From Candidatus Woesebacteria bacterium (GTDB taxonomy: Bacteria > Patescibacteriota > Microgenomatia > UBA1400 > UBA12028), in contig JAGOVC010000002.1 in the NCBI GenBank assembly GCA_018060955.1, positions 1-53,061 on the forward strand: 53,061 nucleotides of DNA, written 5' to 3'. Positions 730-46,344 of the stretch are shown piece after piece. The notes beneath the pieces were generated by a model that had not been told where the DNA came from, made no database searches, and saw only the letters and a list, made by a program, of their open reading frames with translations. The translations under genes were made by a program, and so were the position numbers. The first letter of the stretch is position 1, and every line of letters starts with the position of its first letter.

Positions 730-837
730 CTACTATACGGGATTGAATGACCACAGGGGAAGTCTGAGCTATTCTGGTCAGATAGAATCTCGAAAAGTTG
801 TTTCTATTTGATACAATGACACCCTGCAGTAATCTCT

Positions 838-922
838 GGAGGGGTCGCATAGTGGTTTAGTGCAGCGGTTTACTAAACCGCCGTAACGAAAGTTACCGAG
901 GGTTCGAATCCCTCCCCCTCCG
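838..922 (+). tRNA. class II (long variable arm) Ser-type tRNA with anticodon ACU
   Basis: Hand-folded cloverleaf: acceptor 838-844/915-921, D stem GCA/TGC, anticodon stem 865-869/877-881, loop TTACTAA (anticodon 872-874 = ACT). Variable arm GTAAC-GAAA-GTTAC, T arm GAGGG-TTCGAAT-CCCTC, discriminator G922, no encoded CCA. Confidence 0.8.
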
Positions 923-978
923 CCCATACATTGTAAGATGCCCTTGCTTTCACAATAAGTGAGTCATACCATCAAGGG

Positions 979-3206: not shown

Positions 3207-3296
3207 GGAAGCGTCGCATAGTGGCCTAGTGCAGCGGTTTGCTAAACCGCGACCCTTAATCGGGTCTCGTGGGTTCGAATCCCACCGCTTCCGCCA
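3207..3296 (+). tRNA. tRNA-Ser (anticodon GCU)
   Basis: Acceptor GGAAGCG/CGCTTCC, anticodon loop TTGCTAA (GCT at 3241-3243), long variable arm, T arm GTGGG-TTCGAAT-CCCAC, discriminator G and encoded CCA 3294-3296. Confidence 0.9.
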
Positions 3297-31824: not shown

Positions 31825-34800
31825 TTAGAACGCGTAGCGAAGATATTCAAAGATACCAATCTTTCCATCTCCGTTTGTATCCATGCTGTTGCGTTCTTCT
31901 GTCGTGGCGCCTTGAACTGCAGACGTGTAGGTAAAGGTCAAGTCGACATAGTTCCACGTGTTATTGTAGTAGGCAACTGCCCGCACTGATGTGCCATTTG
32001 CGACTGCAAAGCCATTGGGTGCTCCATTGGTGTCTCCACCTAGGAAGAAGGGCACAACCTTGTCTTGGGTGGTCCATTTCCCGTTGATGTACCAGTCTAC
32101 CTGGGTCACATTCAATGTTGGGTCTACGGTTTGCAGTTGCAAGTAGACTTTTCCATTGGAAGGAGCGGCAGCTTCCACAACCTTTATCTTAGAGGTTGAC
32201 CCGAGAACCCGTGCGGCTGTCGGAGTGGTGGTCGTTGTAACCGAGGATGTATAGGTCAACGTTGATTCCACAAAGTTCCAGGTGTTATTGACATATCCCA
32301 CCGCTCTAAATTTAGTGGTGCTCCCAGTGAGCGTGAATCCCACTGCCGTTCCGTTGGTATCTCCACCAATATAGTAGGGAACAACTTTATCCTGTGATGT
32401 CCACTTATCATTCACGTAGAGCTCCATTTGAGTGACATTGAGTGAAGGATCCGCCACCATTTGAATAAAGACTTTATTTCCTTCTTTTGGTTTGACTTCC
32501 ATGAAACGGATCTTGCCTCGGTTCGTTGAGGTAAGTTCTCGTGGAAAGGTTGCTCCAGAAATTGGATCCGTTGTACTAATGGGGAAGGGAGTCGCACTCG
32601 TTGGAACTGGAGTCGGTGTGGATGGTGCCGTTGTTGGAATTCCAGTAGGGAGAACCGTTGATAGCGGAGGTGTGGTTCCCACAGGAATAATGACATCGGG
32701 TTGATTTGGAATTGGCGCTTGTGATGTAGATCCACCCCATGCAATTTTCATTGCTTCCAATTTATTGGTGTCTCCTAGTACCATTGGACCACTCCAATTG
32801 TAAATTCCCCATCGCCAACCTGAGAGGACATCATGTCGCCATCCGTAGTGCGCGTGATGAACACCCCAGTCTCGATAGAGCTCTGCTTTGTCCTTGATGT
32901 ATTGAACATATCCCTTGGTCCAACCCTGTCCGCCCCATTCTCCAACATAGTGCGGGACGTTGTTTTGGGCTGCCCAATCCATCGCGTATTTCTTACGCAA
33001 GCTGAATTGTGGATAGCGTGTTCCAGCCATTGTCGATTTATCGAAATACAAGGTTTCTTTACCTAGTTCAGTCCAAACCGATGAATTTCCAGGGTATTGC
33101 GCAGAGGTATCTACCGCATTGTACCCAGGATGTGAAATTCCCATTGGTTCATAATCGTGAACTTCGTAGACAATGTTTTCGAGTTTTGCGCCACTTGCTG
33201 TCTTGAGGACTCGACTAAAGGAGGCATCCGCACAAGCTTCCACAAAGATTAAGTGGTTGGGGTCTATCGCAACGACTGATCGTGCAATGCCCTCGGCGAT
33301 ATTAAACCAGTGATTACAGTTGTATTTTCTCCAGTCTGGGAAGGGTTCGTTGAGCAAATCATAACCTCCCACAACTGGGTTGTTTTTGTAGCGGGTGGCT
33401 ACATCAAGCCAGAACGCTTTGAGTTCTGCTTGCTCACTAGCACTGTCCCAGAATCCACAGATATTGCTGTATCCTTCATAACAGTTCCCAGGTGTGGTGA
33501 ACATATTGAGGATAAACCAGAGTCCATTCGCTTGGGCATAGCCGATGTGCTGATCAAGCTTCTGAAAGAATTCTGTCCGATTATTTTTGTACCAGTTAAA
33601 GCTTAATCCATAGCGAATATGGTTGATTCCTAAGCTCTTCGCAACCCGGTAGTCTTCCTCCGTATTATTCAGGTTTCCCATATTTCCACTACCAATTCCC
33701 GCTCCGAGGCTTTTGATGTTATCAAAGTTTGTTCCTCGAAGGGTGATTTTTTGACCGTTATAGATAATGTCTTTCCCTGAAGCCTGAAGGAACCCTCCAC
33801 TTGTTCCTGCACCAGTCGATGGAGTAGGTGTTGGGAGTATGGAAGGGATAGGTGTGGAAACGACATTTGTTGGGACCGGCGTTGCAATTGGTGTAGGAAC
33901 AGGAGTTCCTTGAACAGGGGTACCGGATCCGCCGTTTACCTTTGAGAAAAAGTTCGTCACATAGGTTTGACCATAGCTGTTGAGGGTGGTGAAGTCCCCA
34001 CTAGTCATGTTGTTTTCATCACACCAGTTCCACATCCATGCAAACACACCGTTGTGTCCTTTGGGTATTCCGGTGCTCACAAGAGAACTAAGGAGATTGC
34101 TAGGATAGCTGGAAACAACCCCTGTAGTACCAGGATTAATTTGTCCCAGTTCACCGATTAACACCGGAACTGTACCGGCTGCATCAAAAGTGGGTTTGAC
34201 TCGGGAATTGAGATCAAGATTGGGATACCAGTGATTTGAGAACACAACATTGGCCGCGCCACCAAGCAGTGAAGCATCATGGGTGCGGACTTCTGCCATA
34301 TGTGTCGCACTTGTTCCTCCAGCCCATCCTCTAGTATCAAGGACGACCACACCTTTGAAGTTTAAGGTGTTACGAAAATAGGTAAGTGTGGTTTTATTTT
34401 GGTCTCTCCAATGTTCCCAAGTGTTTCCATCTGAGGAAGCTTGCGATCCATAAGGTTCATTGTAGGGGTTCATGATGAGCATGGATTCAAAGCCACGGTT
34501 TCTAGATTCCTGGACCATTTTCTGGAACAAGGGATAGGACGTGGTCTGATACCCTGAAAGTACTTTTCCGGTGAAACTATGGTCCGATGGCATCACATAG
34601 ATCCCATTGCGTGCAAAGAGCTCCATAAAGTCCATGAACTGTGTGAAGTTTGTTGTGCTTTCTGAAAGCCAACTTGTTTTGTAATTAAAGCGAACAGCAT
34701 TAATACCCATCGACTTCATGGTTGCCACGATGTCATTTCTCTTATTCCATTGACCGGATGTAATATCGCTGCAGCCTCGATCACGATAGAACTCAAGATT

Positions 34801-36291
34801 CACACCTTCGACAATGAAACGGTTTCCATTCGGAAGCTGCAGAGAAGTACCAGACATCTTCAATGCTCCGTTTGAAGCTCCACCAGTTGATGGGGAGGGA
34901 GTCGGTGTTCGAATGGGGGTTGGGGTTGGAGTCAGTTGTGAGGTAGGAACAGGCGTTGGCGCAGCTGTGGAAGGAACTCCCGAGGCAGAGGTCAGTTCCA
35001 CAAAATATGCTTCACCGTTATTTAGGGATGGTAAAGACAACGATAAGGTATTGTTTGTAACTGCAAATGTTTGGTCGTAGCTAACTGATAGTGAGCTGAC
35101 TTCATTTTGCGCAGTCGATGGGCTAAAGGGGATTTTAGAAGCTTGGACTCGGACGGACGATCCTAATCCTAAGTTTTGAAGGGTAGCCGGTGTGGCACCA
35201 CTCCCACTGTAACGGCCGATGAGTAGATAGGCTTTCGAACCGTTTTTGGTCGCAACTGCGTCTAAACCACTGTCATAATTTACTTTGACTACTGTCCCTG
35301 TCATGTCGGCATACTTTCGATATGTCCAATAGGCAGCGCGTGGCTTTAGGTTTGTGGTTAATAGGTGATTGAGCTGTCGACGAGCGGATGATTCCACCAC
35401 ATCCCAGTAAGCTAACGAAGAGCCGGCGAGTTGATTACGCTCGGTATGGGCGATCAGCGTCACTAGTGACGAAGGTTTCACACTGTCATAGATACTCATA
35501 GAGGGGTTGTAGTACAACACTTCATTGAGTTCATAACCCGGATTATAGTTCGCATACGCAGGATAGGTGCTTCGAATCTGCGTGACGATAGCTTTTGCGT
35601 CGTTGAGATTTCTTTCTAATACAGCAGGGGTAATCGATGTAAACTCGTGCCAGGAAATAATGTCGGGAAGGACATTGTTTTGTGCCGAATAGAGTAGGAA
35701 GGCACGAACCCACTCATAGCTATTCGGTTCTAATGTTTTGCTAAACGCAATGGTACTGGGTCCCACAATCTCAGCTTGGGGATCGAGTTGACGAAGCAAC
35801 ACATAGGTGCGTTTCCACCACTCAAAGAAAACATCCCGACCTGCAGTCCAGGTCCAATCGCTATCAGCTTCATTCCATATGTCATATTGATAGGAAATTC
35901 CTTTTCCTTTTACTTCTGCCACTTTCGTCCGGACAAATGCGTCCCAGGAGGGCCACTTGTTGGAGATGTCCGCCATACTACTAGGCTTGTAGTTATATCC
36001 AGGAAGTAGTTGGACCACGGTCGTTCCATATTGTTGGGCTCGGCTTAAGCCTTTGGTTCCCGTCAATCGACGGAAAATCTTTGGTCGCAACGGATCGATG
36101 AGACTATCGGGAACTGCATCATCAGCTCCTCCATGAAATCCCAGACCTCGTCGACTTGCAGTTCCCAAGGATTGTGAAAAATCTACTTCCAGTGCATATG
36201 AAAAAGTGGGCTGGACCAAAAAAGTAAAAAGGAAGAAGAGAAAGACCGCTATTCTGGAGATTACCGAGAAAGGTGGGAACTTGGAATTCAT
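31825..36291 (-). CDS. secreted multi-modular glycoside hydrolase (three clan GH-A type modules, two GH5-like)
   Basis: Signal peptide, then an N-terminal module with YDIWNEADS. GH5-like module 2 has MNPYNEPYG and IGELGQ; GH5-like module 3 has DLLNEPFP, HDYEP and VGEWGG. Pro/Thr linkers separate the modules, followed by two 93-aa tandem C-terminal domains and a terminal DTNGDGKIGIFE. Confidence 0.85.
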   Translation of the reverse strand: MNSKFPPFSVISRIAVFLFFLFTFLVQPTFSYALEVDFSQSLGTASRRGLGFHGGADDAVPDSLIDPLRPKIFRRLTGTKGLSRAQQYGTTVVQLLPGYNYKPSSMADISNKWPSWDAFVRTKVAEVKGKGISYQYDIWNEADSDWTWTAGRDVFFEWWKRTYVLLRQLDPQAEIVGPSTIAFSKTLEPNSYEWVRAFLLYSAQNNVLPDIISWHEFTSITPAVLERNLNDAKAIVTQIRSTYPAYANYNPGYELNEVLYYNPSMSIYDSVKPSSLVTLIAHTERNQLAGSSLAYWDVVESSARRQLNHLLTTNLKPRAAYWTYRKYADMTGTVVKVNYDSGLDAVATKNGSKAYLLIGRYSGSGATPATLQNLGLGSSVRVQASKIPFSPSTAQNEVSSLSVSYDQTFAVTNNTLSLSLPSLNNGEAYFVELTSASGVPSTAAPTPVPTSQLTPTPTPIRTPTPSPSTGGASNGALKMSGTSLQLPNGNRFIVEGVNLEFYRDRGCSDITSGQWNKRNDIVATMKSMGINAVRFNYKTSWLSESTTNFTQFMDFMELFARNGIYVMPSDHSFTGKVLSGYQTTSYPLFQKMVQESRNRGFESMLIMNPYNEPYGSQASSDGNTWEHWRDQNKTTLTYFRNTLNFKGVVVLDTRGWAGGTSATHMAEVRTHDASLLGGAANVVFSNHWYPNLDLNSRVKPTFDAAGTVPVLIGELGQINPGTTGVVSSYPSNLLSSLVSTGIPKGHNGVFAWMWNWCDENNMTSGDFTTLNSYGQTYVTNFFSKVNGGSGTPVQGTPVPTPIATPVPTNVVSTPIPSILPTPTPSTGAGTSGGFLQASGKDIIYNGQKITLRGTNFDNIKSLGAGIGSGNMGNLNNTEEDYRVAKSLGINHIRYGLSFNWYKNNRTEFFQKLDQHIGYAQANGLWFILNMFTTPGNCYEGYSNICGFWDSASEQAELKAFWLDVATRYKNNPVVGGYDLLNEPFPDWRKYNCNHWFNIAEGIARSVVAIDPNHLIFVEACADASFSRVLKTASGAKLENIVYEVHDYEPMGISHPGYNAVDTSAQYPGNSSVWTELGKETLYFDKSTMAGTRYPQFSLRKKYAMDWAAQNNVPHYVGEWGGQGWTKGYVQYIKDKAELYRDWGVHHAHYGWRHDVLSGWRWGIYNWSGPMVLGDTNKLEAMKIAWGGSTSQAPIPNQPDVIIPVGTTPPLSTVLPTGIPTTAPSTPTPVPTSATPFPISTTDPISGATFPRELTSTNRGKIRFMEVKPKEGNKVFIQMVADPSLNVTQMELYVNDKWTSQDKVVPYYIGGDTNGTAVGFTLTGSTTKFRAVGYVNNTWNFVESTLTYTSSVTTTTTPTAARVLGSTSKIKVVEAAAPSNGKVYLQLQTVDPTLNVTQVDWYINGKWTTQDKVVPFFLGGDTNGAPNGFAVANGTSVRAVAYYNNTWNYVDLTFTYTSAVQGATTEERNSMDTNGDGKIGIFEYLRYAF

Positions 36292-37817: not shown

Positions 37818-37892
37818 TCCCCGATGGCGCAACGGTAGCGCGGCTCGCTGTTAACGAGATGGTTCTAGGTTCGAATCCTAGTCGGGGAGCCA
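37818..37892 (+). tRNA. tRNA-Asn (anticodon GUU)
   Basis: Acceptor TCCCCGA/TCGGGGA, D arm GCGC-AACGGTA-GCGC, anticodon loop CTGTTAA (GTT 37850-37852), T arm CTAGG-TTCGAAT-CCTAG, discriminator G, encoded CCA. Confidence 0.9.
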
Positions 37893-37947
37893 CTTTTCAC
37901 TTATCCGAACTATATCGTGAGATAAGTGTTAAAAGTCATAAGGACAA

Positions 37948-40878
37948 ATGGCTTTTATATTTTCAAATGGATCAGAATATCGTAAATGGGATCTACATTT
38001 TCATACACCTTCTTCTTACGACTACAAAGACCAATCTACTACTAACCAACAAATCATAGATCAACTAACTGCAAATGAAATTCGAGTGGTTGCGATCACA
38101 GACCACAATACGATTGACTCATCTCGATTTAAAGAACTTCAAACGCTGGCAGGTGAGGCAATAACTTTCCTTCCCGGCATTGAACTATGTACTAGTTCTC
38201 GTGGCACTGACCCAATTCATATAATTGGAATTTTTCCCGAGAACAGCGATAGTGATTATGTCTGGAATCAGCTGAACGTGAAGCTTGGAATTTCAAGCAT
38301 GTTGCACGATGGTAAAAAAGAAAATGAAGTTTACTGTGATATTAAGGTTGCTTCTGAACTCATTAGATCTTTGGGTGGCTTGGTTACTATTCACGCTGGG
38401 CGAAAATCAAATTCGATTGAAGAAATCACCAATGCGTTGCCTGTAATGATGGCTGAGAAAAAGGACATAGCTGAGTGCGTAGATATTTTTGAGGTTGGAC
38501 AGGTCAAGGATGTTGAAGATTACACGGCCATTGTGTTTCCCAAAATTGGCAAGGAGTACCCATTAGTAATCTGCTCTGACAACCATGATTGTAAAACCTA
38601 TGAAGCCAAAGAAACACTTTGGATAAAAGCTGACCCCACTTTTGAAGGTTTGAAACAAATTACCTACGAACCATCACGTGCTTACGTTGGAAGTGAGCCT
38701 CCAATTCATGCGCGAGTAAGGCAAAACCCTACCAAATTTATTGAGAGTGTGAACGTCACTAAAGTTAGTAGCTATCAAGAGAATGATGGAGTTTGGTTCA
38801 AAGATGTCTCCATCTCCTTGAATTCTGAAATGGTGGCAATTATTGGTAATAAAGGAGGGGGCAAGAGTGCCATAGCCGACATCATAGGATACGTCGGGGG
38901 CGCAAAGACTGTTATTGAAACGGATGATGCTTCCTTCTTAAACGAGAAAAAGTTTAGAAAAAATGACCTCGCATGTAATTTCACTGCAACCCTCAAATGG
39001 GTAAGTGGTGACACCGATACTGAAAACCTTCAGTCACCCGAAAACCCACACACCACGGAAAAGGTGAAGTACTTACCGCAGCATTGGTTTGAAGAGCTGT
39101 GTAACGATCTCGATGGTAAGAAATTCAACGAAGAACTTGAAAAAGTCGTTTTCTCTCATCTTGATCACAGCGAAAAAATTGGCCACGATAGTTTTGCTGA
39201 GCTAATCAGAGAGAAAAGCCAAACTGCAAACCAAGAAATTGCTAAATTAAAGACACAACTCACTGACCTAAATACATTAATAGTTGAATTGTTAAAAAAA
39301 CTCCACCCTGACCATAAAAATGAACTTGAAGAAGCTATCAAACAAAAGCAACGCGAGCTTGATGCTCATAACAAGACACAGCCTGCTGAAGAACCAAAGC
39401 CTGCCGATGATAACCTCGCCACCCAAGCACTTGCTATACAAATTAACCAACTTAATACGAAGATTACTGTGCTAATAGCACAGCTACAAGAGTCTGTAGC
39501 CGCTCAAACGAGCATTAAACAAAAGCAACAAAAATTAAGTGACTTTGAAGCTGAACTAGTACATCTTCAACAAGAAGTAAAAGAACTTACAGAAACGTAC
39601 GACTTTACTGAAATAACGGGAGAGATTTTAGGCGATCCGCTTTTTCAATTCACTTACGACGAAGAAAAATTTAAAACCGCAAAAAGAAAGTTGGCAGACC
39701 AGCTAGCCATAGAGGAACAAAAACATTTTACCAATGAGGAAATAGGTCAGTTTCCCAACTTAACCCAACAACAGAAAGCTAATTACATTCAAAGAAGTAT
39801 CGTGGCGCAGCTAGAAATAGCGAACGGCGAACTGAAAGATGTTAAGAAACAACTCAGCAAACCACAGGAAAAATACCAACAGTATCTCGAAGATAAGAAA
39901 AAGTGGGAAACTGACAAGTTAAAGATTGAAGGTGCGACAACTGACCCAGCGGACGGAACACTTAACTACCTTAAAAACCAACTTGCAGCCTTAGGAAAAG
40001 TAGTTCTTGATCTACTTACCAAAAAAGAAAAGCAGCGAGTAGAACTGACACGACAAATTTTCGAGAAAAAACATCAGATCGTTATCATCTATGAATCTAT
40101 CAAACAACAAGTTGACGATGTGCTTCAGCAGGGAAAACAGAGTATTGATGGGTATAGTATTTCAGTTGATGCAGGATTCCAACTTAGCCCTTCGTTCGTA
40201 TCACATACAATAGGCCACATTAACTTACGTGCCAAAGGTTCCTACATGGAAACAGACAACGCGCGAGCTCAGATTAAAAAGCTGAGTGAGCAAAGTAACT
40301 TGCAAACCTTTGAAGAAGTGAAGACTATGGCACAGAAAATTCTAGATGACCTAGCCACAGATAACAGATCTGAGGTAGACCAAAACAACAGGCAAAGATA
40401 TTTACAAGACCAGGTTAAATCACCTGTAGAGTTTTTAGATTACTTGTTTGGCCTAGATTATTTAGCGCCTAATTACCAACTCAAGCTTGACCAAAAGAAC
40501 CTTAGCAGCTTATCCCCAGGGGAAAAAGGTGCTTTACTCTTAGTTTTCTATCTGATGTTAGACCAGGATGATATTCCTCTAGTCATAGATCAGCCTGAAG
40601 ACAATTTAGATAACGAAAGTGTTGCCAAAATACTCGTGCAGTTCATTAAGAGCGCGAAACACCGGCGGCAAATTATCATGGTCACCCACAATCCTAACTT
40701 AGCCGTGGTTGCAGATGCTGAGCAAGTAATCTACGTCAATATCGACAAAGCCGATGGAAACACCTTTAGTTTCATATCAGGATCAATTGAGAATGACGAA
40801 GTGAACAAAAAAATTGTTGATGTACTTGAAGGAACAATGCCCGCTTTTGATAAAAGGAGGCTACGTTACTTAAGGTAA
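37948..40878 (+). CDS. PHP-domain phosphoesterase fused to an SMC/Rad50-like ABC ATPase with a long coiled-coil insert (Ppl-like defence candidate)
   Basis: PHP motifs WDLHFHT (from 37996), VAITDHNT, TIHAGR, ICSDNHD. Walker A GNKGGGKS (38845-38868), about 400 aa of K/E/Q-rich coiled coil, signature LSPGEKG (40510-40530), Walker B LVIDQPED (40579-40602), H-loop MVTHNP. Confidence 0.85.
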   Translation: MAFIFSNGSEYRKWDLHFHTPSSYDYKDQSTTNQQIIDQLTANEIRVVAITDHNTIDSSRFKELQTLAGEAITFLPGIELCTSSRGTDPIHIIGIFPENSDSDYVWNQLNVKLGISSMLHDGKKENEVYCDIKVASELIRSLGGLVTIHAGRKSNSIEEITNALPVMMAEKKDIAECVDIFEVGQVKDVEDYTAIVFPKIGKEYPLVICSDNHDCKTYEAKETLWIKADPTFEGLKQITYEPSRAYVGSEPPIHARVRQNPTKFIESVNVTKVSSYQENDGVWFKDVSISLNSEMVAIIGNKGGGKSAIADIIGYVGGAKTVIETDDASFLNEKKFRKNDLACNFTATLKWVSGDTDTENLQSPENPHTTEKVKYLPQHWFEELCNDLDGKKFNEELEKVVFSHLDHSEKIGHDSFAELIREKSQTANQEIAKLKTQLTDLNTLIVELLKKLHPDHKNELEEAIKQKQRELDAHNKTQPAEEPKPADDNLATQALAIQINQLNTKITVLIAQLQESVAAQTSIKQKQQKLSDFEAELVHLQQEVKELTETYDFTEITGEILGDPLFQFTYDEEKFKTAKRKLADQLAIEEQKHFTNEEIGQFPNLTQQQKANYIQRSIVAQLEIANGELKDVKKQLSKPQEKYQQYLEDKKKWETDKLKIEGATTDPADGTLNYLKNQLAALGKVVLDLLTKKEKQRVELTRQIFEKKHQIVIIYESIKQQVDDVLQQGKQSIDGYSISVDAGFQLSPSFVSHTIGHINLRAKGSYMETDNARAQIKKLSEQSNLQTFEEVKTMAQKILDDLATDNRSEVDQNNRQRYLQDQVKSPVEFLDYLFGLDYLAPNYQLKLDQKNLSSLSPGEKGALLLVFYLMLDQDDIPLVIDQPEDNLDNESVAKILVQFIKSAKHRRQIIMVTHNPNLAVVADAEQVIYVNIDKADGNTFSFISGSIENDEVNKKIVDVLEGTMPAFDKRRLRYLR

Positions 40879-40937
40879 CCTTGTATTAACTATTGATAGG
40901 GCAAACCTAACAAAATTCTTCACATAATATTCGATGA

Positions 40938-40954
40938 AGTCCCACACGGGGAGC
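40938..40954 (+). repeat. left copy of a 17-nt direct repeat AGTCCCACACGGGGAGC
   Basis: Read directly. 16/17 identical to 43735-43751, and both copies contain a small TCCC/GGGA hairpin. Confidence 0.8.
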
Positions 40955-41042
40955 TCTGAAGACTCGAGTTTATTCTTCCCCAAGTCGATTGGTTATACCG
41001 ACTTACTTGTCCAACACTTCCATATCCGAATTCGCTCAAAAA

Positions 41043-41070
41043 TTGACGTAATGTAATTTCATAGTAAAAT
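41043..41070 (+). promoter_or_regulatory. candidate promoter of the T-box leader
   Basis: TTGACG (41043-41048), 16 nt, TAAAAT (41065-41070). Confidence 0.5.
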
Positions 41071-41093
41071 GTTATATACAAGTTAATATTAAA

Positions 41094-41436
41094 GCGTCGA
41101 CGGAAGACCAAGTAAGTCCTTAGGTGGTAACCAGAGATTCAGCGGTTGGTGAAAGCTGAACAAGCCTGAGAGAAACCGAAATACCTTCCCGAGCAGTCCA
41201 AACCAATTCTTGATTTCAAGATAGTAGCGCGGAATGGGTGTGCCCATAATAGCACTAGAGCATGTCACAAATGACACAGAGTGCTCGAACAACAAGGATA
41301 GTCTTGGTTTGTTTCGAGTCTCCCATGTAGGAGACTTTTTTGTAGGCCAAAGCTATTGAAGCACGGTGGTACCGCGTATTCCTTTTGATGAAGACGCCCG
41401 TGTATTTACTTAAACGAGTAAGTACGCGGGTTTTTT
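41094..41436 (+). promoter_or_regulatory. T-box riboswitch leader (transcription attenuation type)
   Basis: K-turn, S-turn AGUA/GAA, AG bulge AGAGA 41133-41137, distal loop GGUUGGUGAAA, Stem III-like hairpin 41316-41337, T-box sequence GGUGGUACCGCG 41365-41376. A 15-bp terminator at 41397-41430 is followed by U6, and a competing antiterminator pairing exists (41362-41365 with 41399-41402). Confidence 0.75.
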
Positions 41437-41455: not shown

Positions 41456-42523
41456 ATGCAACCACATGAACTAGGACGACACTTAATACGTCCCGAGCAA
41501 AGACAATTAGTGACACAAAACATCATTGATCATTGGGTAGGCCAATTAGCTCAATTACGTATCAGCGATATTCGTGAATCGATTATTAATAAACAACGGT
41601 TCATAGATTTGCTCGTGAAATCAGTACAAACACAAACGCCATTGTCATTTATTGCATTGGGTTGCCAAGACTGGGTAAAACCAGAATGGGGTGATCCACA
41701 TGTAGATCGCATAATGGGGAGGATTAATAGTAGTAACAAGCGAGCTCGACGATTCACTACTGAAGTAGCTAGTTTCAGCAGTGCACTAATCTCTCTAGGA
41801 GTTCCTCATCAAATCCACTTTACTTTATCTGATATTGAAGCATTGATTCATATTCGTCTACAGAATATGGGTCTAACAATTCACAACTCAGACGCACAAG
41901 AAGTTTTAGAAAAGAATGTCAGATTTTTAACTGAAGAATTGCAAAAACTTGGAGCTCAGGTTGTGCAGTTTACGCATAGTACTGTATTGGAAGACCTTTT
42001 TGGCACAACTAATCTGGCGGAATTACAGCAACGAATTACTGGACATCATACTGTAAAGTACAGGACATTCTTAGACAACCTATACAAAGTTGATTTAACT
42101 CAAACAGCTATTCATGTTGCTGGTGAAAACACACTAGGACCGGTTTGGTTGGATATTCAATCGTTAAATTTTACTGATGATGTTATCTCATTGGCTCAAG
42201 CTGCTCAAGAAGTTGCTCCAGATATGCCAATACTAACAATTTTCCCAAATGCCGGGAGTTGGCATGCAGGGCAACAAGCTTCAATAACTTTTCCTAAGCG
42301 TGAAGATGTTGTGGCTCAAATGTTGGGACATACAAGGACACCAGCATCGCAAAAGGAATGGAAAGATAAGGTTCATAAAACAAATGATGAAAAGCTTATT
42401 CAACTTTTACAAAAATTTGGTCAAGAAATCTCTGTTATTGATTCAGGAATGGAAAAGACATTGGCAGTTCGAGCATTTTTCCAATTGGTATTCGAGTTCG
42501 ATCCATTTGATCAATCATTATGA
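41456..42523 (+). CDS. hypothetical protein, first gene of the T-box-controlled operon
   Basis: 355-aa ORF with strong SD AAGGAGG (41446-41452). No family motif recognised by eye. Confidence 0.7.
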   Translation: MQPHELGRHLIRPEQRQLVTQNIIDHWVGQLAQLRISDIRESIINKQRFIDLLVKSVQTQTPLSFIALGCQDWVKPEWGDPHVDRIMGRINSSNKRARRFTTEVASFSSALISLGVPHQIHFTLSDIEALIHIRLQNMGLTIHNSDAQEVLEKNVRFLTEELQKLGAQVVQFTHSTVLEDLFGTTNLAELQQRITGHHTVKYRTFLDNLYKVDLTQTAIHVAGENTLGPVWLDIQSLNFTDDVISLAQAAQEVAPDMPILTIFPNAGSWHAGQQASITFPKREDVVAQMLGHTRTPASQKEWKDKVHKTNDEKLIQLLQKFGQEISVIDSGMEKTLAVRAFFQLVFEFDPFDQSL

Positions 42524-42534
42524 GAGGGAAATAT

Positions 42535-43632
42535 ATGAATACAAGTTCTATAGCTCAAGAGATTGCACTACAACTAATTGCTATTGATACCTCCAAGCAA
42601 AATGGAATCCACTCTGCAATGAATTGGATTGAAACATGGTGCAAAGCTCAAGGACTTCTAATAAAAAGAATCCCTCATACAAAAGCAATCCTAATAGAGA
42701 CACATCCTGAAGCCCAAAAGCATGTGAATTTTGTTACGCACATCGATGTAGTTCCGGCAGATGGATGGAATGAAGCATTTACTCCTCTGGTCAAAAACAA
42801 CTGTCTAATTGGTAGAGGCGCAGTTGATGACAAAGGACCATTGGCTATTTGCCTAGAGGTATTGGTAAAAGCACAACAACATTCGCACATAAATGTCTCT
42901 TGCTTGATTGTGACTGACGAAGAAACTCAAAATACAGAAATTCAAGAGATTACAAAAGCAAATACATTCCATCCTGATCTATGTATTGTTGTCGATGGAG
43001 GAACACATAAAGTCTTTGATATTGGCCAAAAAGGCATCATTCGTTTTGATGTTTCAATTCAAACGCCTGGAGGTCACAGTGCATTTGAAGAGGTAGAGAA
43101 GAGTGCAAGTATCCAGCTACTGCAATTCATCTCAGATTTAGAAAAACTTGCAATAACTTTTCCTCATCACGTTGCATTCTCAAAAACATTTATCAATGTG
43201 AGTAAAATTTCTGCAGCAACTGTTCCGTATGGTTTGCCCACTCTAGCCATAGCACATATTGAATTACAATTCGCCCCTCCGCAAACAAGTGAAGAATGGA
43301 GAAATCAAATCAATCAACTTTTGGGAAAATTTAATGAATACGAATTAAACATTCATTGGATTAGCGAACCGCACATGCTAGAAAATCAAAAATTCTTAAA
43401 CCTCCTTCATTCGTTACCGAATGTTCGGTGTGTTACCACTGGAGGTAACAATCTTGCTAAAGATCTTTGTTTGGCTGGTGTTCCAGCAGTAAGCCATTGT
43501 CCCGTTAGTGAATACATTGCCCATTGTAAAGAAGAAAAAATAAACCTAATAGATTTCAAAAAAGGTGTACACTCATACCTAAAAATAATTGAACTATTTT
43601 GCGAAAATTATGATGATTTGACAAAGAAATAG
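42535..43632 (+). CDS. M20-family metallo-amidohydrolase (ArgE/DapE/acylase-like)
   Basis: THIDVVPA, GRGAVDDKGPLA, IVTDEE. The start is ATG 42535 with GAGAGGG 6 nt upstream; ATG 42520 overlaps the upstream stop (ATGA) and is an alternative. Confidence 0.85.
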   Translation: MNTSSIAQEIALQLIAIDTSKQNGIHSAMNWIETWCKAQGLLIKRIPHTKAILIETHPEAQKHVNFVTHIDVVPADGWNEAFTPLVKNNCLIGRGAVDDKGPLAICLEVLVKAQQHSHINVSCLIVTDEETQNTEIQEITKANTFHPDLCIVVDGGTHKVFDIGQKGIIRFDVSIQTPGGHSAFEEVEKSASIQLLQFISDLEKLAITFPHHVAFSKTFINVSKISAATVPYGLPTLAIAHIELQFAPPQTSEEWRNQINQLLGKFNEYELNIHWISEPHMLENQKFLNLLHSLPNVRCVTTGGNNLAKDLCLAGVPAVSHCPVSEYIAHCKEEKINLIDFKKGVHSYLKIIELFCENYDDLTKK

Positions 43633-43734
43633 GAAAAAGCTGAAGTACTTCTAATCACTTAGAGAGATATAATTTATGCCACAATAATTCTTTTTTGAGA
43701 ACTTGGAAAAATCAAGCTGTTATCTTTCGGATTG

Positions 43735-43751
43735 AGTCCCACACTGGGAGC
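43735..43751 (+). repeat. right copy of the 17-nt direct repeat AGTCCCACACTGGGAGC
   Basis: Read directly. It lies 103 nt after the M20 stop codon. Confidence 0.8.
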
Positions 43752-43801
43752 AAAACTTTTTAGCTTCAATCTTGGAGCACCCTAGGTGGGACATCGAACC
43801 A

Positions 43802-44011
43802 TTACTGATTATTATGCTCTACTTTTAGAAGTATGTTTGGTTTGACGCCAGCGACGGCTGGTAGCAGGTGATTGAGTACCTGTTCGGCTGTCATTCTGAA
43901 TTCTTTACCTTTTGCTGATATCTTTACCCAACCTATTTCATCTTTGTAGTATTTTTCTGTGAAGTTTTTAGTTCCCATCCAAATCACATAACTATCATTT
44001 TTTAAATTCAT
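43802..44011 (-). CDS. hypothetical small protein
   Basis: 69-aa ORF. On the minus strand TGT-TAAAAT (44018-44023) sits 6 nt upstream of the ATG, a leaderless-type arrangement. Confidence 0.5.
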   Translation of the reverse strand: MNLKNDSYVIWMGTKNFTEKYYKDEIGWVKISAKGKEFRMTAEQVLNHLLPAVAGVKPNILLKVEHNNQ

Positions 44012-44101
44012 ACTGAAATTTTAACATAATGAGTTCTGAACGATTTCACTAGGAGGAACCAGACATTAGACGATTGAAACTTTTTAGATATAATAAAACA
44101 C

Positions 44102-44380
44102 ATGTCATTTCAAGCATATTTAGATAACATTGAGGAAATGACAGGAAAAACTCCACAAGAGCTTATTGATCGAGCAAAATCTAAAGGTTTCGACAAAAAC
44201 ACAAAGGCTGGGGAAATTCTTGCTTGGTTAAAAGATGAATATAAGTTAGGACGAGGACATGGAATGGCATTAGTTCATGTTATTAAGAATGGACCGATTA
44301 TAGGTGAAAAAAATGTAAATAGTGGTGGGGTTCATAGTGACGAATCCAATACTCTCATCCTGACTGGAAAGAAAAAGTAG
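44102..44380 (+). CDS. DUF4287-domain protein
   Basis: MSFQAYLDNIEEMTGKTPQELIDRAKSKGF...EILAWLKDEYKLGRGHGMALVHVI. TATAAT (44089-44094) lies 7 nt upstream of the ATG. Confidence 0.7.
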   Translation: MSFQAYLDNIEEMTGKTPQELIDRAKSKGFDKNTKAGEILAWLKDEYKLGRGHGMALVHVIKNGPIIGEKNVNSGGVHSDESNTLILTGKKK

Positions 44381-44580
44381 AATCATCAACTTCTTTGAAG
44401 TAGGTTTTAAAAGAGTCCTTCATCTGGAACAGGAATAACTTGAACTAATCTTTTAGTTCTATAGATACATTCAATTCTCTAGTTCCTGTCGGATCTTGAA
44501 TTCATAGAAAAATGTCGCATGGAATGTTGCCATCAAAAAAAAGCTGTTTGGAAGTAAATCTGGATTTTAGGGAATCGTCG

Positions 44581-44853
44581 TTATTTGCCAGTAGACTGAG
44601 CTTCAGCTTCTTTTTCCATTTTTAATAAACGAGTGTAATAATCGGGAAGCTCATTGAGATGGGCGAGTGCAATTTTACCCGTTATTAACAAATCATCATT
44701 CGTAACATTAGTGTGCGGAGAAGCGGTTCCATGCTCTAATTCTACTTCCATACCCATTTTATATTGATCCACGTCAAACTTATCCCAGGTAATACCTAAT
44801 TGGTCTCCTATCTGCTTCGCTTCTTCAAAAGAAATTTGTTTTTTTGCTGTCAT
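44581..44853 (-). CDS. DUF5661-like protein
   Basis: EEAKQIGDQLGITWDKFDVDQYKMGMEVELEHGT...NVTNDDLLITGKIALAHLNELPDYYTRL. TATACT (44860-44865, minus strand) lies 6 nt upstream of the ATG. Confidence 0.6.
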   Translation of the reverse strand: MTAKKQISFEEAKQIGDQLGITWDKFDVDQYKMGMEVELEHGTASPHTNVTNDDLLITGKIALAHLNELPDYYTRLLKMEKEAEAQSTGK

Positions 44854-45032
44854 ATTGAAAGTATACTCTTATCCCTCTAGTCGTACTGAACTCAATTTCC
44901 ATTTTGATTTTTAGCTACTGAGACTTCAACTTTTTGTTCCTGAATATGTTTACAATTGCTGGCACACCTTTCACATAGATGTGACTTTAAATAGTCCCTC
45001 AAAATACTAGAGCAGTTTGTTATACTTCAAAA

Positions 45033-45416
45033 ATGCCTGAAGCTTACACTCGTAGAGAGATTATTTTTCACAACAAAATTGGTCTAGATGAATTTTTAAG
45101 ACTCGCAGCAAATTTATTAGAAGGCAGAAAGATTGGTAGTGTTGAGATTAGACTTTGGGGAGAGATCCCTAATATTAGAGATAATCCCATTGACTATCTC
45201 CGTTTCCGTTTAGGTACAGTTATTCCCTTAATAGATTTTCAAGCGGAAGGTATTGGGGTAGAAGCTTGGTCTCCAGTTAATGATCAGAGCACCGTTGATG
45301 ATTTCTTTGATTTCTTCGTTAGAAGGCTTAGAGACGACGGGCCGAAAACATCAGAAGGGACTGCAGTCTCTGCATATAGACAAAGAGTTAAAGAGTGGTC
45401 AGAGAATCAGAATTAA
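45033..45416 (+). CDS. hypothetical protein
   Basis: 127-aa ORF. TGT-TATACT (45021-45026) lies 6 nt upstream of the ATG. Confidence 0.5.
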   Translation: MPEAYTRREIIFHNKIGLDEFLRLAANLLEGRKIGSVEIRLWGEIPNIRDNPIDYLRFRLGTVIPLIDFQAEGIGVEAWSPVNDQSTVDDFFDFFVRRLRDDGPKTSEGTAVSAYRQRVKEWSENQN

Positions 45417-45617
45417 GTTGTCGAAAAATCGACCTATTTCGCCCCGATTATACTGTGAAGCAATGACATGATCGAGATTTCGGATAAGTTCATGAACAGG
45501 GAGCCCATTAGTACCTGCTCGAACTTTTGCTATAATTATAGTTCTGAGATCAAACACATTTCGAGTTACCACACTGGCACTTCTTTCTCTTCTTTCGATA
45601 GCATTTATTGAAGGCAT
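45399..45617 (-). CDS. hypothetical small protein
   Basis: 72-aa ORF, convergent with the previous gene and overlapping it by 18 nt. No motif recognised. Confidence 0.35.
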   Translation of the reverse strand: MPSINAIERRERSASVVTRNVFDLRTIIIAKVRAGTNGLPVHELIRNLDHVIASQYNRGEIGRFFDNLILIL

Positions 45618-45648
45618 TCTAGAGTTTATTTCTAGTAAACCTGCTCCT

Positions 45649-46005
45649 ATGTTTGTAGTAGGCTTATGTGATTTTTCAACCCATCATCTTTGTTTAGCTC
45701 TAGGTATCTATCATTTTTTACTTGAAGGATTACCCACTCTTTTATTATTAATTGCGTTTTGGTCATTACTACTTCGAAAACTCAAAGTTCCACACCCATT
45801 TTTTATTGTATTGAGTGGGTTTTTTCTATGGATCTTACTCTTTTGGAAGTTGCCTATTGGGCAGATTTATATAGCTGTGGGAACATCTAACCTACTTTAT
45901 TACGTCACGTCAGTGACTATTCATGTCTTATTGCCGTATTCTTTGGCATACTTTGTTGCTCTATTACTCTTTAAACGAGAATGGACGAAGCTAAATGAAT
46001 CCTAA
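45649..46005 (+). CDS. hypothetical membrane protein
   Basis: 118-aa ORF with three to four hydrophobic helices. Confidence 0.5.
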   Translation: MFVVGLCDFSTHHLCLALGIYHFLLEGLPTLLLLIAFWSLLLRKLKVPHPFFIVLSGFFLWILLFWKLPIGQIYIAVGTSNLLYYVTSVTIHVLLPYSLAYFVALLLFKREWTKLNES

Positions 46006-46152
46006 ACGGAAAGGACAGAGTTTCTCAGAGGTGACAACCTTTAGTGTTGTTATCATATTTGAACCTCTTTTACCTTTAGGGTGTCTCACATCCATAAATC
46101 AGGGTATAATGCACATAGAAGTATAGGTGCAATTAGTTGAAAGGAAATAAAT

Positions 46153-46344
46153 ATGATTACAGGATATTGTGTTAAATGTAAAGAAAAAGGTGTTGAACTA
46201 TCAGGTGCAGAGATTCACCAGACCCAAAAAGGTGGATTCATGGCAAAAGGGAAGCATGATAAGTGCGGAACAACTGTTTGTGCCATGATGTCAAAAGACA
46301 ATGCAGAAAAAGCAGTAGAAAATGGTGCGACAAAAGCGTACTAA
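46153..46344 (+). CDS. DUF5679-like zinc-ribbon protein
   Basis: CVKCKEK...KCGTTVC cysteine pairs. SD GAAAGGA is present. Confidence 0.55.
   Translation: MITGYCVKCKEKGVELSGAEIHQTQKGGFMAKGKHDKCGTTVCAMMSKDNAEKAVENGATKAY

What the first reader, a model, noticed from the sequence alone, without database searches (positions are those of the whole stretch)
37948..40878. Stand-alone PHP phosphoesterase - SMC-like ATPase fusion immediately after tRNA-Asn (Ppl-type anti-phage architecture)
The 976-aa protein has three parts.
- An N-terminal PHP domain with its metal-ligand motifs (HFHT, TDHNT, HAGR, SDNHD).
- An ABC/SMC-type head split by about 400 aa of coiled coil. The head carries Walker A GNKGGGKS, signature LSPGEKG, Walker B VIDQPEDNLD and H-loop VTHNP.
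- No partner gene: the next transcription unit is the T-box cassette.

As I recall, a single-gene PHP plus ATPase protein (PplA, polymerase/histidinol-phosphatase-like) was reported as an anti-phage system. This protein has that architecture. It sits 56 nt downstream of a tRNA gene at the start of an AT-richer accessory region, a typical context for defence genes. Defence systems in small-genome lineages are sparsely described.
Basis: partly seen in the sequence, partly recalled or inferred. Interest (0 to 1): 0.65.

Follow-up and report, generated by a model that had tools for sequence, protein, structure and literature searches.

The report
Ppl-like PHP nuclease–ATPase defence gene
A single 976-residue gene in a small-genome (Patescibacteria) bacterium fuses a metal-dependent nuclease-type domain to an SMC-like ATPase; it is a clear but distant relative of the known anti-phage protein Ppl, is present in some strains and absent in others, and is a new member of a known family rather than a new kind of system.

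Summary

NCBIfam places it full length in the "TrlF family AAA-like ATPase" (633 bits, cut-off 350). It scores only 123 bits on the Ppl model (cut-off 1000). Validated E. coli Ppl itself passes the TrlF model (477 bits), so Ppl is a clade inside this family. The window protein is a distant paralogue, about 20% identical.

An AlphaFold model (pLDDT 85.7) matches SMC/MukB/Rad50/JetC heads with a coiled coil, plus an RNase AM / Pol III-type PHP domain.

No partner gene is conserved. Relatives sit inside Type I and other R-M operons, next to serine recombinases, on conjugative plasmids and on proviral contigs.

In freshwater metagenomes, about 97%-identical strains keep both flanks but lack the gene. 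The variable segment runs from the tRNA-Asn 3' end to just before the T-box leader.

The most likely function is a Ppl-like, nucleotide-gated exonuclease defence gene. This is inferred, not tested. It is a new member of a known kind, of modest interest.

The parts
37818..37892 (+). tRNA-Asn (GTT). Its 3' end is the left boundary of the strain-variable segment.
   Evidence: ARAGORN and Rfam, 64.6 bits. In runs X5, X6, X9 and X10, contigs diverge from the window at 37890-37892.
37893..37947 (+). 55-nt spacer with an AAGGA ribosome-binding site at 37940-37944. The scan found no sigma-70-like promoter in it.
   Evidence: Sequence read and promoter scan.
37948..40878 (+). TrlF-family (Ppl-like) PHP-ABC ATPase gene, 976 aa.
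   Evidence: ORF. NCBIfam NF045780 scores 633 bits against a cut-off of 350, matching model positions 1-943 of 944. The PADLOC Ppl HMM gives E = 1.7e-32. More than 3,100 homologues were found.
37969..38697 (+). N-terminal PHP phosphoesterase domain (about aa 8-250). Putative metal ligands are H17, H19, D25, H53, E79, H91, H149, D211 and H213.
   Evidence: The ligand positions are invariant or at least 90% conserved, except D25, which is the consensus residue but below 90%. A PHP profile built from the family hits every member, Ppl included. Foldseek matches RNase AM 7ug9 (TMt 0.66), 9etk, and the Pol III alpha PHP domain 4gx8/2hnh.
38734..39192 (+). ATPase head, N-terminal lobe (about aa 263-415). 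Walker A GNKGGGKS is at aa 300-307 (nt 38845-38868); the Q-loop residue is Q378.
   Evidence: Invariant G300, G303, G305, K306, S307 and Q378. Pfam SMC_N and AAA_29 hits, both below their gathering cut-offs. Sequence matches to ABC ATPases in the PDB.
39193..40146 (+). Long helical insert (aa 416-733). It is predicted to be an antiparallel coiled-coil arm with breaks near aa 476-489 and 662-671 and an apex at about aa 551-606. There is no CxxC zinc hook.
   Evidence: AF2 secondary structure. Foldseek matches to SMC, MukB, Rad50, JetC, LmuB and RecN heads with coiled coil, E = 4e-9 to 1e-5. The sequence shows no Cys pair. The antiparallel pairing is inferred, not measured.
40159..40875 (+). ATPase head, C-terminal lobe (aa 738-976). 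It carries the signature LSPGEKG (nt 40510-40530), the Walker B/D-loop VIDQPEDNLD (nt 40582-40611) with Gln in place of the canonical catalytic Glu, and the H-loop VTHNP (nt 40681-40695).
   Evidence: Invariant columns. D-Q-P-E occurs in 119 of 120 homologues and in E. coli Ppl and two plasmid TrlFs. Pfam AAA_21 covers aa 835-918.
40879..41077 (+). Downstream spacer, the right-hand part of the strain-variable segment. Relatives resume similarity to the window at 41022 or 41078.
   Evidence: Loose ends and contig pieces in X5, X6 and X10. A promoter-like site for the T-box unit lies at 41043-41070.

Best explanation
The gene encodes a stand-alone TrlF-family protein. This is the broad family that contains the anti-phage protein Ppl. 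The protein is an N-terminal PHP metal-dependent nuclease fused to an SMC/Rad50-like ABC ATPase, whose head is split by a coiled-coil arm of about 320 residues.

The gene is a strain-variable, laterally exchanged accessory gene in a Patescibacteria (Microgenomates-group) genome, and it most likely serves defence against phages or other invading DNA.

Proposed mechanism, by homology with E. coli Ppl. While nucleotide levels are normal, NTP bound to the ATPase head (and possibly to the PHP site) keeps the nuclease off. When infection lowers the NTP pool and exposes DNA 3'-OH ends, the PHP domain degrades DNA exonucleolytically and infection stops. The invariant Walker B Gln (D-Q-P-E) suggests the head works mainly as a nucleotide-binding switch or sensor rather than as a fast motor.

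What is shown here: the architecture, conservation of the active sites, family membership, the variable and defence-linked context, and the absence of a partner gene.

What is inferred: dimerisation, the substrate, nucleotide gating, and the anti-phage role.
For: Family and architecture:
- NCBIfam TrlF scores 633 bits against a cut-off of 350, over the full length.
- Validated Ppl passes the same model with 477 bits, also over its full length.
- The PADLOC Ppl HMM gives E = 1.7e-32.
- The AF2 model has pLDDT 85.7. Foldseek finds SMC/MukB/Rad50/JetC/LmuB/RecN heads plus RNase AM and Pol III PHP nucleases.
- All PHP ligands and ABC motifs are conserved.

Stand-alone status: no neighbour cluster occurs in more than 12 of 86 loci.

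Defence and mobile-element context:
- Neighbour families, by number of loci: Type I HsdS/M 12, HsdR 7, N6_N4 methylase 6, ResIII-type helicase 5, GmrSD 3, RhuM 4, Fic 5, tyrosine integrases 4.
- Type I S subunits are the commonest immediate neighbour.
- The closest relatives (68-78% identity) lie 3-8 kb from large serine recombinases, next to an N6_N4 methylase + ResIII pair or an EcoRI-type methylase + GmrSD/HNH pair.
- 1,150 plasmid records carry a match, 827 of them conjugative plasmids.
- About 25 full-length copies lie on IMG/VR contigs.

Lateral transfer: the protein is 75% identical to its L091 counterpart, while RpoD is 65% and DnaG 43% identical between the same organisms.

Strain variability: in X5, X6 and X10 both flanks have depth 6-18 at about 96-97% identity, but depth is about 0 over 38002-41007. 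In X1 and X2 the gene has the same depth as its flanks.

Mechanism from the literature:
- Ppl is a single-gene PHP + ATPase defence system (PMC11482910).
- Ppl is an ssDNA 3'-5' exonuclease. It is inhibited by NTPs bound to its PHP and NTPase domains, and activated by NTP depletion plus 3'-OH ends (PMC12904381, summarising Xu et al., Mol Cell 2026, cited).
Against: - Identity to Ppl is only about 20%, and the Ppl equivalog model is failed by a wide margin (123 bits against 1000). Transferring Ppl's trigger and substrate to this protein is therefore an extrapolation.
- No member of this clade has been tested.
- The family's eponym, Photorhabdus TrlF, lies in a locus with a growth-restriction phenotype in which only trlG mutations were recovered. 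No role for TrlF itself was shown (PMC7554251).
- The best structural match of the PHP domain is an exoribonuclease, RNase AM.
- The window has no recombinase, no att repeat and no other recognisable defence gene beside it.
- The relatives that lack the gene do not show a clean empty site.
Confidence: 0.6

Rival explanations
1. It is a weapon of conflict between mobile elements (anti-plasmid or anti-conjugation), carried by mobile elements for their own benefit, rather than an anti-phage gene of the host. The biochemistry (a nucleotide-gated nuclease) would be the same; the target would differ.
For: Family members lie on 1,150 plasmid records, 827 of them conjugative, and on proviral contigs. 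The closest relatives lie in serine-recombinase cassettes. Structural neighbours include Wadjet JetC, which is an anti-plasmid system.
Against: Ppl was validated against phages T7 and Bas63. The window copy is chromosomal and has no recombinase or transfer genes nearby.
Confidence: 0.12
2. It is a TRL-type stress-triggered growth-arrest module, as in the Photorhabdus temperature restriction locus. It would halt replication under stress and would not be dedicated to phage defence.
For: NCBIfam names the family after TrlF of that locus. The TRL operon causes growth arrest at 36 C (PMC7554251). TrlG-like AlbA_2 + HATPase_c_4 neighbours recur in 5 of 86 loci.
Against: Here there is no TrlG or TrlR, and 81 of 86 loci lack a TrlG-like neighbour within five genes. 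No trlF mutations were recovered in the Photorhabdus screen. The TRL phenotype is itself compatible with autoimmunity of a defence system.
Confidence: 0.1
3. It is an RNA-directed nuclease. The PHP domain would act as an RNase AM-like exoribonuclease on tRNA, rRNA or phage transcripts, under ATPase control. This is analogous to the ABC-ATPase-linked anticodon nucleases PrrC and RloC that sit in Type I R-M loci (the PrrC/RloC comparison is from my own knowledge).
For: The best PHP fold matches are RNase AM structures 7ug9 and 9etk, and NCBIfam gives weak RNase RNM and bisphosphate-phosphatase hits. The phage counter-defence protein against Ppl is Ro60-like, that is, an RNA-binding fold. The gene is frequently embedded between hsdS/M and hsdR, as prrC is. 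It lies next to a tRNA gene here.
Against: Ppl is reported to be an ssDNA 3'-5' exonuclease. Pol III alpha PHP domains also match. tRNA adjacency is found in only 2 of 86 loci.
Confidence: 0.08
4. It is a housekeeping DNA-end processing or repair enzyme, a single-chain functional analogue of Mre11-Rad50/SbcCD in a reduced genome.
For: A Rad50/SMC-like head with a coiled coil is fused to a metallo-phosphoesterase. Ppl's head matches Rad50 by sequence. Some records annotate relatives as 'DNA repair protein'.
Against: It is absent from about 97%-identical strains. There is no synteny among close relatives. The family is distributed sporadically across phyla. Neighbours are R-M and mobile-element genes, not repair operons.
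Confidence: 0.05

Closest known systems
TrlF family AAA-like ATPase (NCBIfam NF045780; eponym: Photorhabdus laumondii TrlF of the trlR-trlF-trlG temperature restriction locus)
   Same: It matches the model over the full length and above the curated cut-off (633 against 350 bits). The architecture is the same PHP + ABC ATPase with the same D-Q-P-E-D Walker B. PGAP would give it this name, as it does for the plasmid copies.
   Different: There is no trlG or trlR partner here. It is only about 22% identical to the Yersinia plasmid TrlF. The function of TrlF itself was never demonstrated.
Ppl anti-phage protein (Gao et al. 2020; NCBIfam NF042955; PADLOC Ppl)
   Same: It is a single-gene system with the same domain order. 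It is homologous over both the N-terminal PHP/Walker A region and the C-terminal lobe. Both proteins pass the TrlF model. The PADLOC Ppl HMM gives E = 1.7e-32. The D-Q-P-E-D Walker B is shared.
   Different: It scores 123 bits against a cut-off of 1000 on the Ppl equivalog model, is about 20% identical to Ppl, and sits on a separate long branch. Other differences: 976 aa against 891 aa, a longer helical insert, signature LSPGEK against SPGQK, and H-loop THNP against SHSA.
SMC-like defence complexes and Mre11-Rad50/SbcCD (Wadjet JetABCD, Lamassu LmuACB)
   Same: An ABC head split by a coiled coil is paired with a nuclease. These are the top Foldseek matches.
   Different: Here the nuclease is fused in cis and is of the PHP type, not Toprim, Cap4 or Mre11. 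The arm is much shorter and has no hinge or zinc hook. There are no kleisin or KITE partners. The canonical Walker B Glu is replaced by Gln.
OLD / Gabija GajA / PARIS AriA (AAA_21-type ABC ATPases in defence)
   Same: The C-terminal lobe is of the AAA_21 type. PADLOC AriA hits and a match to AriA structure 8v46 were found. Gabija is likewise reported to sense a drop in cellular NTPs.
   Different: There is no Toprim domain and no AriB/GajB partner. A PHP nuclease sits at the N-terminus instead.

Membership tests
TrlF family AAA-like ATPase (NF045780) | Full-length match to the curated HMM at or above the 350-bit cut-off | tested here: met
   633.4 bits, residues 7-974 matched to model positions 1-943 of 944. 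For calibration, the Yersinia TrlF scores 551, the S. aureus TrlF 586 and Ppl 477.
TrlF family AAA-like ATPase (NF045780) | N-terminal PHP domain with a complete set of metal ligands | tested here: met
   H17, H19, H53, E79, H91, H149, D211 and H213 are conserved at 90% or more, and D25 is the consensus residue. The PHP profile hits all members. The fold matches RNase AM and Pol III PHP domains.
TrlF family AAA-like ATPase (NF045780) | ABC-type head with Walker A, Q-loop, signature, D-Q-P-E-D-x-L-D Walker B/D-loop and H-loop | tested here: met
   Invariant columns and the motif census, 119 of 120.
Photorhabdus TRL operon (trlR-trlF-trlG) | Adjacent TrlG (AlbA_2 + HATPase_c_4) and a small TrlR regulator | tested here: not met
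   The neighbours are a divergent MarR gene, tRNA-Asn and a T-box unit. A TrlG-like neighbour occurs in only 5 of 86 loci.
Ppl anti-phage protein (NF042955 equivalog) | HMM score at or above 1000 bits | tested here: not met
   123.1 bits. Bona fide Ppl scores 1330.
Ppl anti-phage protein (PADLOC / DefenseFinder call) | A hit to the Ppl HMM that passes the pipeline's E-value and coverage thresholds | tested here: inconclusive
   E = 1.7e-32 and 110 bits in two stretches, but the best stretch covers only model positions 707-892 of 894. The pipelines' coverage rules could not be run here.
Ppl anti-phage protein | Single-gene PHP + ATPase architecture with no partner | tested here: met
   Ppl on pLZ135-NDM is likewise stand-alone.
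Ppl anti-phage protein | Protects against phage; ssDNA 3'-5' exonuclease gated by NTPs and 3'-OH ends | not testable with these tools
   Known only for E. coli Ppl.
SMC / Rad50 superfamily | ABC head split by an antiparallel coiled coil | tested here: met
   Foldseek E = 4e-9 to 1e-5 against Smc, MukB, Rad50, JetC, LmuB and RecN. Helices span residues 416-733.
SMC / Rad50 superfamily | A hinge or CxxC zinc hook at the apex, and the canonical Walker B D-E | tested here: not met
   There is no Cys pair in residues 550-610. The Walker B is D-Q with an invariant Gln.

The most novel reading that the evidence does not exclude
The whole NCBIfam 'TrlF family' may be one large superfamily of Ppl-like, nucleotide-sensing nuclease defence proteins.

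On this reading, the clade represented here is an untested subtype with its own trigger. That clade is widespread, from Patescibacteria to Bacteroidota, Bacillota and Planctomycetota, and is often wedged between hsdS/M and hsdR in the way prrC is.

Its invariant natural E-to-Q Walker B would mean the SMC-like head senses nucleotide by binding it rather than by hydrolysing it. The Photorhabdus 'temperature restriction' phenotype would then be autoimmunity of such a defence locus.
Probability: 0.3. Interest if true: 0.5.

Novelty: new member of a known kind. Interest (0 to 1): 0.3.

Why it matters
The result adds a clearly assignable single-gene nuclease-ATPase defence candidate to a Patescibacteria genome, a lineage in which experimentally grounded immunity genes are few. 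It also comes with direct population evidence that the gene is gained or lost at a site next to a tRNA.

More generally, the analysis links three things that are annotated separately:
- Ppl, which is validated as a defence protein and has a published mechanism;
- the much larger 'TrlF family', which has no assigned function;
- the Photorhabdus temperature-restriction locus.

The shared D-Q-P-E Walker B is a simple and testable clue to how the ATPase head is used.

None of this is a new kind of system, and standard annotation (PGAP) would already name the protein.

Tried and rejected
- **Integrative island with att sites.** No direct repeat flanks the gene, and no second copy of the tRNA-Asn 3' end exists in the window. 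Rejected.
- **tRNA adjacency as a family trait.** Only 2 of 86 loci have a tRNA within 1.5 kb. Rejected; here the tRNA looks like a local hotspot boundary.
- **An obligatory partner gene.** Clustering of the ±5 neighbours found nothing in more than 12 of 86 loci. Rejected.
- **Swapping of the N-terminal effector domain.** Relatives whose N-terminus does not align by BLAST still match a PHP profile. Rejected. P0004 is a mosaic of a divergent PHP domain with a closely related C-terminus.
- **Empty-site test through the 355-aa flank gene.** The metagenome scan found no relative, and the family has only 8 members, whose contexts are too distant to help. This test was replaced by laying sequencing-run contigs. 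That worked, but it showed cargo replacement rather than a clean empty site.
- **A solved Ppl structure.** None is in the PDB copy. The primary Ppl paper is not held.
- **One broad literature search.** It returned only noise.
- **Organism names for the closest homologues.** The cluster look-up returned none. The lineage was obtained from RpoD instead.
- **Batch PADLOC scan of neighbours.** Redundant Type I S-subunit models dominated the output, so it gave only a coarse count.
Full report
**1. Observation**

The window has an ATG-initiated ORF at 37948-40878 (+) encoding 976 aa. tRNA-Asn(GTT) lies at 37818-37892 (+). This leaves a 55-nt spacer that contains AAGGA three bases before the ATG.

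In an alignment of 43 homologues the following are invariant or at least 90% conserved:
- the PHP ligand positions H17, H19, H53, E79, H91, H149, D211 and H213;
- Walker A (G300...K306-S307);
- the Q-loop residue Q378;
- the signature (L855-S-P-G-E859);
- the Walker B/D-loop (D881-Q-P-E-x-N-L-D888);
- the H-loop (T913-H-N-P916).

Pfam by itself is weak. AAA_21 passes, while PHP and SMC_N fall below their gathering cut-offs. This is why a domain-only annotation could miss the architecture.

**2. Family**

NCBIfam gives a full-length match to NF045780, 'TrlF family AAA-like ATPase': 633 bits against a cut-off of 350. The 'anti-phage protein Ppl' model scores only 123 bits against a cut-off of 1000. 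PADLOC's Ppl HMM hits at E = 1.7e-32, but mainly over the C-terminal lobe.

I fetched a PGAP-annotated Ppl from an E. coli IncF plasmid and two plasmid TrlFs and scored them on the same models. Ppl scores 1330 on its own model and also 477, over its full length, on the TrlF model. So Ppl is a clade within the TrlF family as NCBI defines it.

The window protein is about 20% identical to Ppl, 22% to the Yersinia TrlF and 33% to the S. aureus TrlF. In a neighbour-joining tree it groups with its 64-78% relatives (L001, P0003, P0004), with P0104, and with P0029, a protein annotated as Levybacteria. Ppl and the Yersinia TrlF are separate long branches.

All members, including Ppl, retain a PHP-homologous N-terminus. 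They also share an unusual Walker B, D-Q-P-E, in which Gln occupies the position of the canonical catalytic Glu. This is seen in 119 of 120 database homologues, in Ppl and in both plasmid TrlFs. That D-E is the canonical form is my own knowledge.

**3. Structure**

AlphaFold2 run with the 43-sequence alignment gives mean pLDDT 85.7 and pTM 0.65. The model has three parts:
- an alpha/beta N-terminal domain;
- a split nucleotide-binding head;
- long helices spanning residues 416-733, with breaks near 476-489 and 662-671.

Foldseek against the PDB returns Smc, MukB, Rad50, JetC (Wadjet), LmuB (Lamassu) and RecN heads with coiled coils, at E = 4e-9 to 1e-5. For the N-terminal domain it returns RNase AM (7ug9, TMt 0.66; 9etk) and the Pol III alpha PHP domain. 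The apex has no CxxC zinc hook. No Ppl structure is in the PDB copy.

**4. What is known about the family**

TrlF takes its name from the Photorhabdus laumondii temperature restriction locus, trlR-trlF-trlG. Temperature-tolerant mutants mapped to trlG (AlbA_2 + HATPase_c_4), none mapped to trlF, and no function was shown for TrlF (PMC7554251).

Ppl is a validated single-gene PHP + ATPase anti-phage system, and Bas63 gp130 (Ro60-like) counters it (PMC11482910). A 2026 review summarises its mechanism (PMC12904381):
- it is an ssDNA 3'-5' exonuclease;
- it is inhibited by NTPs bound to both the PHP and the NTPase domains;
- it is activated by phage-driven NTP depletion together with 3'-OH ends made by phage homing endonucleases.

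The primary source is Xu et al., Mol Cell 2026, 86:180 (cited; not held in the library).

**5. Context elsewhere**

The family is large and phylogenetically scattered:
- more than 3,100 proteins among the 8,000 candidates scored;

I clustered the ±5 neighbours of 86 loci. No partner is universal. The recurrent neighbours are:

| Neighbour | Loci |
|---|---|
| Type I HsdS/M (same strand, mostly just upstream) | 12 |
| HsdR | 7 |
| N6_N4 methylase | 6 |
| ResIII-type helicase with a weak TnsA-like nuclease hit | 5 |
| Fic | 5 |
| TrlG-like AlbA_2 + HATPase_c_4 | 5 |
| RhuM | 4 |
| Tyrosine integrases | 4 |
| GmrSD | 3 |

At least 20 of 86 loci have R-M-type neighbours. Type I S subunits are the commonest immediate neighbour.

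The three closest relatives (68-78% identity) lie 3-8 kb from large serine recombinases. Two of them sit directly next to restriction-modification-type genes: an N6_N4 methylase + ResIII pair in one, and an EcoRI-type methylase + GmrSD_N/HNH pair in the other. A 44% relative sits between a fused Type I M/S gene and RhuM-DUF1016-HsdR.

Family members also occur on 1,150 plasmid records, 827 of them conjugative, and full-length on about 25 IMG/VR contigs.

**6. Context here**

The host is a Patescibacteria bacterium of the Microgenomates group. RpoD is 90% identical to a 'Patescibacteria group' protein and about 80% to 'Microgenomates group' proteins.

Upstream of the gene are a GH5/GH39 giant protein, a fasciclin protein and a divergent MarR gene. 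Downstream are a T-box leader, an orphan 355-aa gene and an M20 peptidase, followed by a run of small accessory genes. There is no recombinase and no att-like repeat.

There is no synteny with the closest relatives apart from one glyoxalase gene. Against the L091 organism, the PHP-ATPase is 75% identical while RpoD is 65% and DnaG 43%. This points to lateral exchange.

The most direct evidence comes from public metagenomes:
- In wastewater runs X1 and X2 the region is 100% identical and the gene has the same depth as its flanks.
- In freshwater runs X5, X6 and X10 a relative about 96-97% identical carries both flanks (depth about 18 in X5, 6-8 in X6), but depth over 38002-41007 is essentially zero.
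- Sequence unlike the window starts right after the tRNA-Asn 3' end (37890-37892), and similarity resumes at 41022 or 41078.
- One X6 contig has at least 745 nt of unlike sequence upstream of 41022.

So the site carries different cargo rather than being simply empty. The segment from 37893 to about 41021-41077 is strain-variable. The tRNA is its left boundary, but tRNA adjacency is not a family trait: only 2 of 86 loci have a tRNA within 1.5 kb.

**7. Mechanism**

Shown here: an intact, conserved PHP metal site of nuclease type; an intact nucleotide-binding head with a conserved signature motif, which implies head-to-head engagement; a Walker B Gln; a coiled-coil arm; and stand-alone, variable, defence- and mobile-element-linked genomics.

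Inferred by homology with Ppl: nucleotide binding holds the PHP exonuclease off, and loss of NTPs together with exposed DNA 3' ends during infection turns it on.

The natural E-to-Q substitution fits a sensor or switch role. In other ABC ATPases an engineered E-to-Q allows ATP binding and dimerisation but not hydrolysis (my own knowledge), although E884 could substitute as the catalytic base.

The rival explanations (inter-element conflict, TRL-type stress arrest, RNA targeting, housekeeping repair) are weighed in their own sections. The repair reading is the least compatible with the presence/absence data.

**8. Verdict**

The precise assignment is a TrlF-family protein that is Ppl-like but not a Ppl orthologue.

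It is a new member of a known kind. It has modest added value as a Patescibacteria example with population-level evidence of variability, and as a pointer that Ppl, TrlF and the TRL locus belong together.

Noticed in passing
window 41088-41404 (leader), 41456-42523 and 42520-43632 (genes); L156, L157: A full-length T-box leader (61.6 bits, below Rfam's cut-off of 93; E = 7e-13) has its own promoter-like site and a terminator hairpin. It precedes an orphan 355-aa protein with no Pfam domain, from a family of only 8 proteins in 5.8 billion, and an M20 peptidase. In relatives this gene pair sits beside a tRNA-synt_1b (TyrRS/TrpRS-class) gene and aromatic amino-acid genes: chorismate mutase, prephenate dehydratase, an aminotransferase, DAHP synthase and prephenate dehydrogenase. 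The triplet at the specifier position reads AUA or UAC depending on register. UAC (Tyr) would fit the neighbourhood, which suggests a possible novel enzyme pair of Tyr/Phe metabolism under tRNA sensing in a Patescibacteria genome.
   Followed up: partly
L091:10001-13105 (P0004) compared with window 37948-40878: P0004 is 75% identical to the window protein over the C-terminal 752 residues. Its N-terminal PHP domain of about 300 aa is detectable only at profile level (120 bits, against 395 for close relatives). This suggests domain-level recombination within the family.
   Followed up: partly
window 43600-46300: This AT-rich stretch (GC 0.35-0.37) holds small genes (DUF4287 at 44102-44380, DUF5661 at 44581-44853) and several unannotated small ORFs. 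Sequencing-run contigs show many small deletions there (for example 43666-43746 and 44411-44562). They also show locally much higher depth at 43741-44674 than in the flanks, as if a short element is shared among many organisms.
   Followed up: no
window 37818-37892: Contigs in runs X2 and X8 show a joint that goes back 70 nt (37887 to 37818). This points to a tandem duplication of the tRNA-Asn gene in some strains. Depth over the tRNA is many times that of the flanks, because the tRNA is shared by many community members.
   Followed up: no
window 31825-36291 (-): A 1,488-aa predicted secreted protein has a GH39-like domain and two stretches matching GH5 cellulase, joined by Thr/Pro-rich linkers, with repeated C-terminal modules. 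This is a large carbohydrate-active enzyme for a small-genome Patescibacteria bacterium.
   Followed up: no
L004:4907-14767, and 11 other loci (L010, L011, L015, L040, L043, L045, L046, L053, L069, L072, L073): Members of the TrlF family are repeatedly inserted on the same strand between Type I hsdS/M and hsdR, sometimes together with RhuM and DUF1016/YhcG. This is the same position the anticodon nuclease PrrC occupies in the EcoprrI locus (the PrrC comparison is from my own knowledge).
   Followed up: partly
window 837-926 and 3207-3296: Two tRNA-Ser genes (anticodons ACT as printed by ARAGORN, and GCT) lie 2.3 kb apart. The ACT anticodon call is unusual and may be a mis-call.
   Followed up: no
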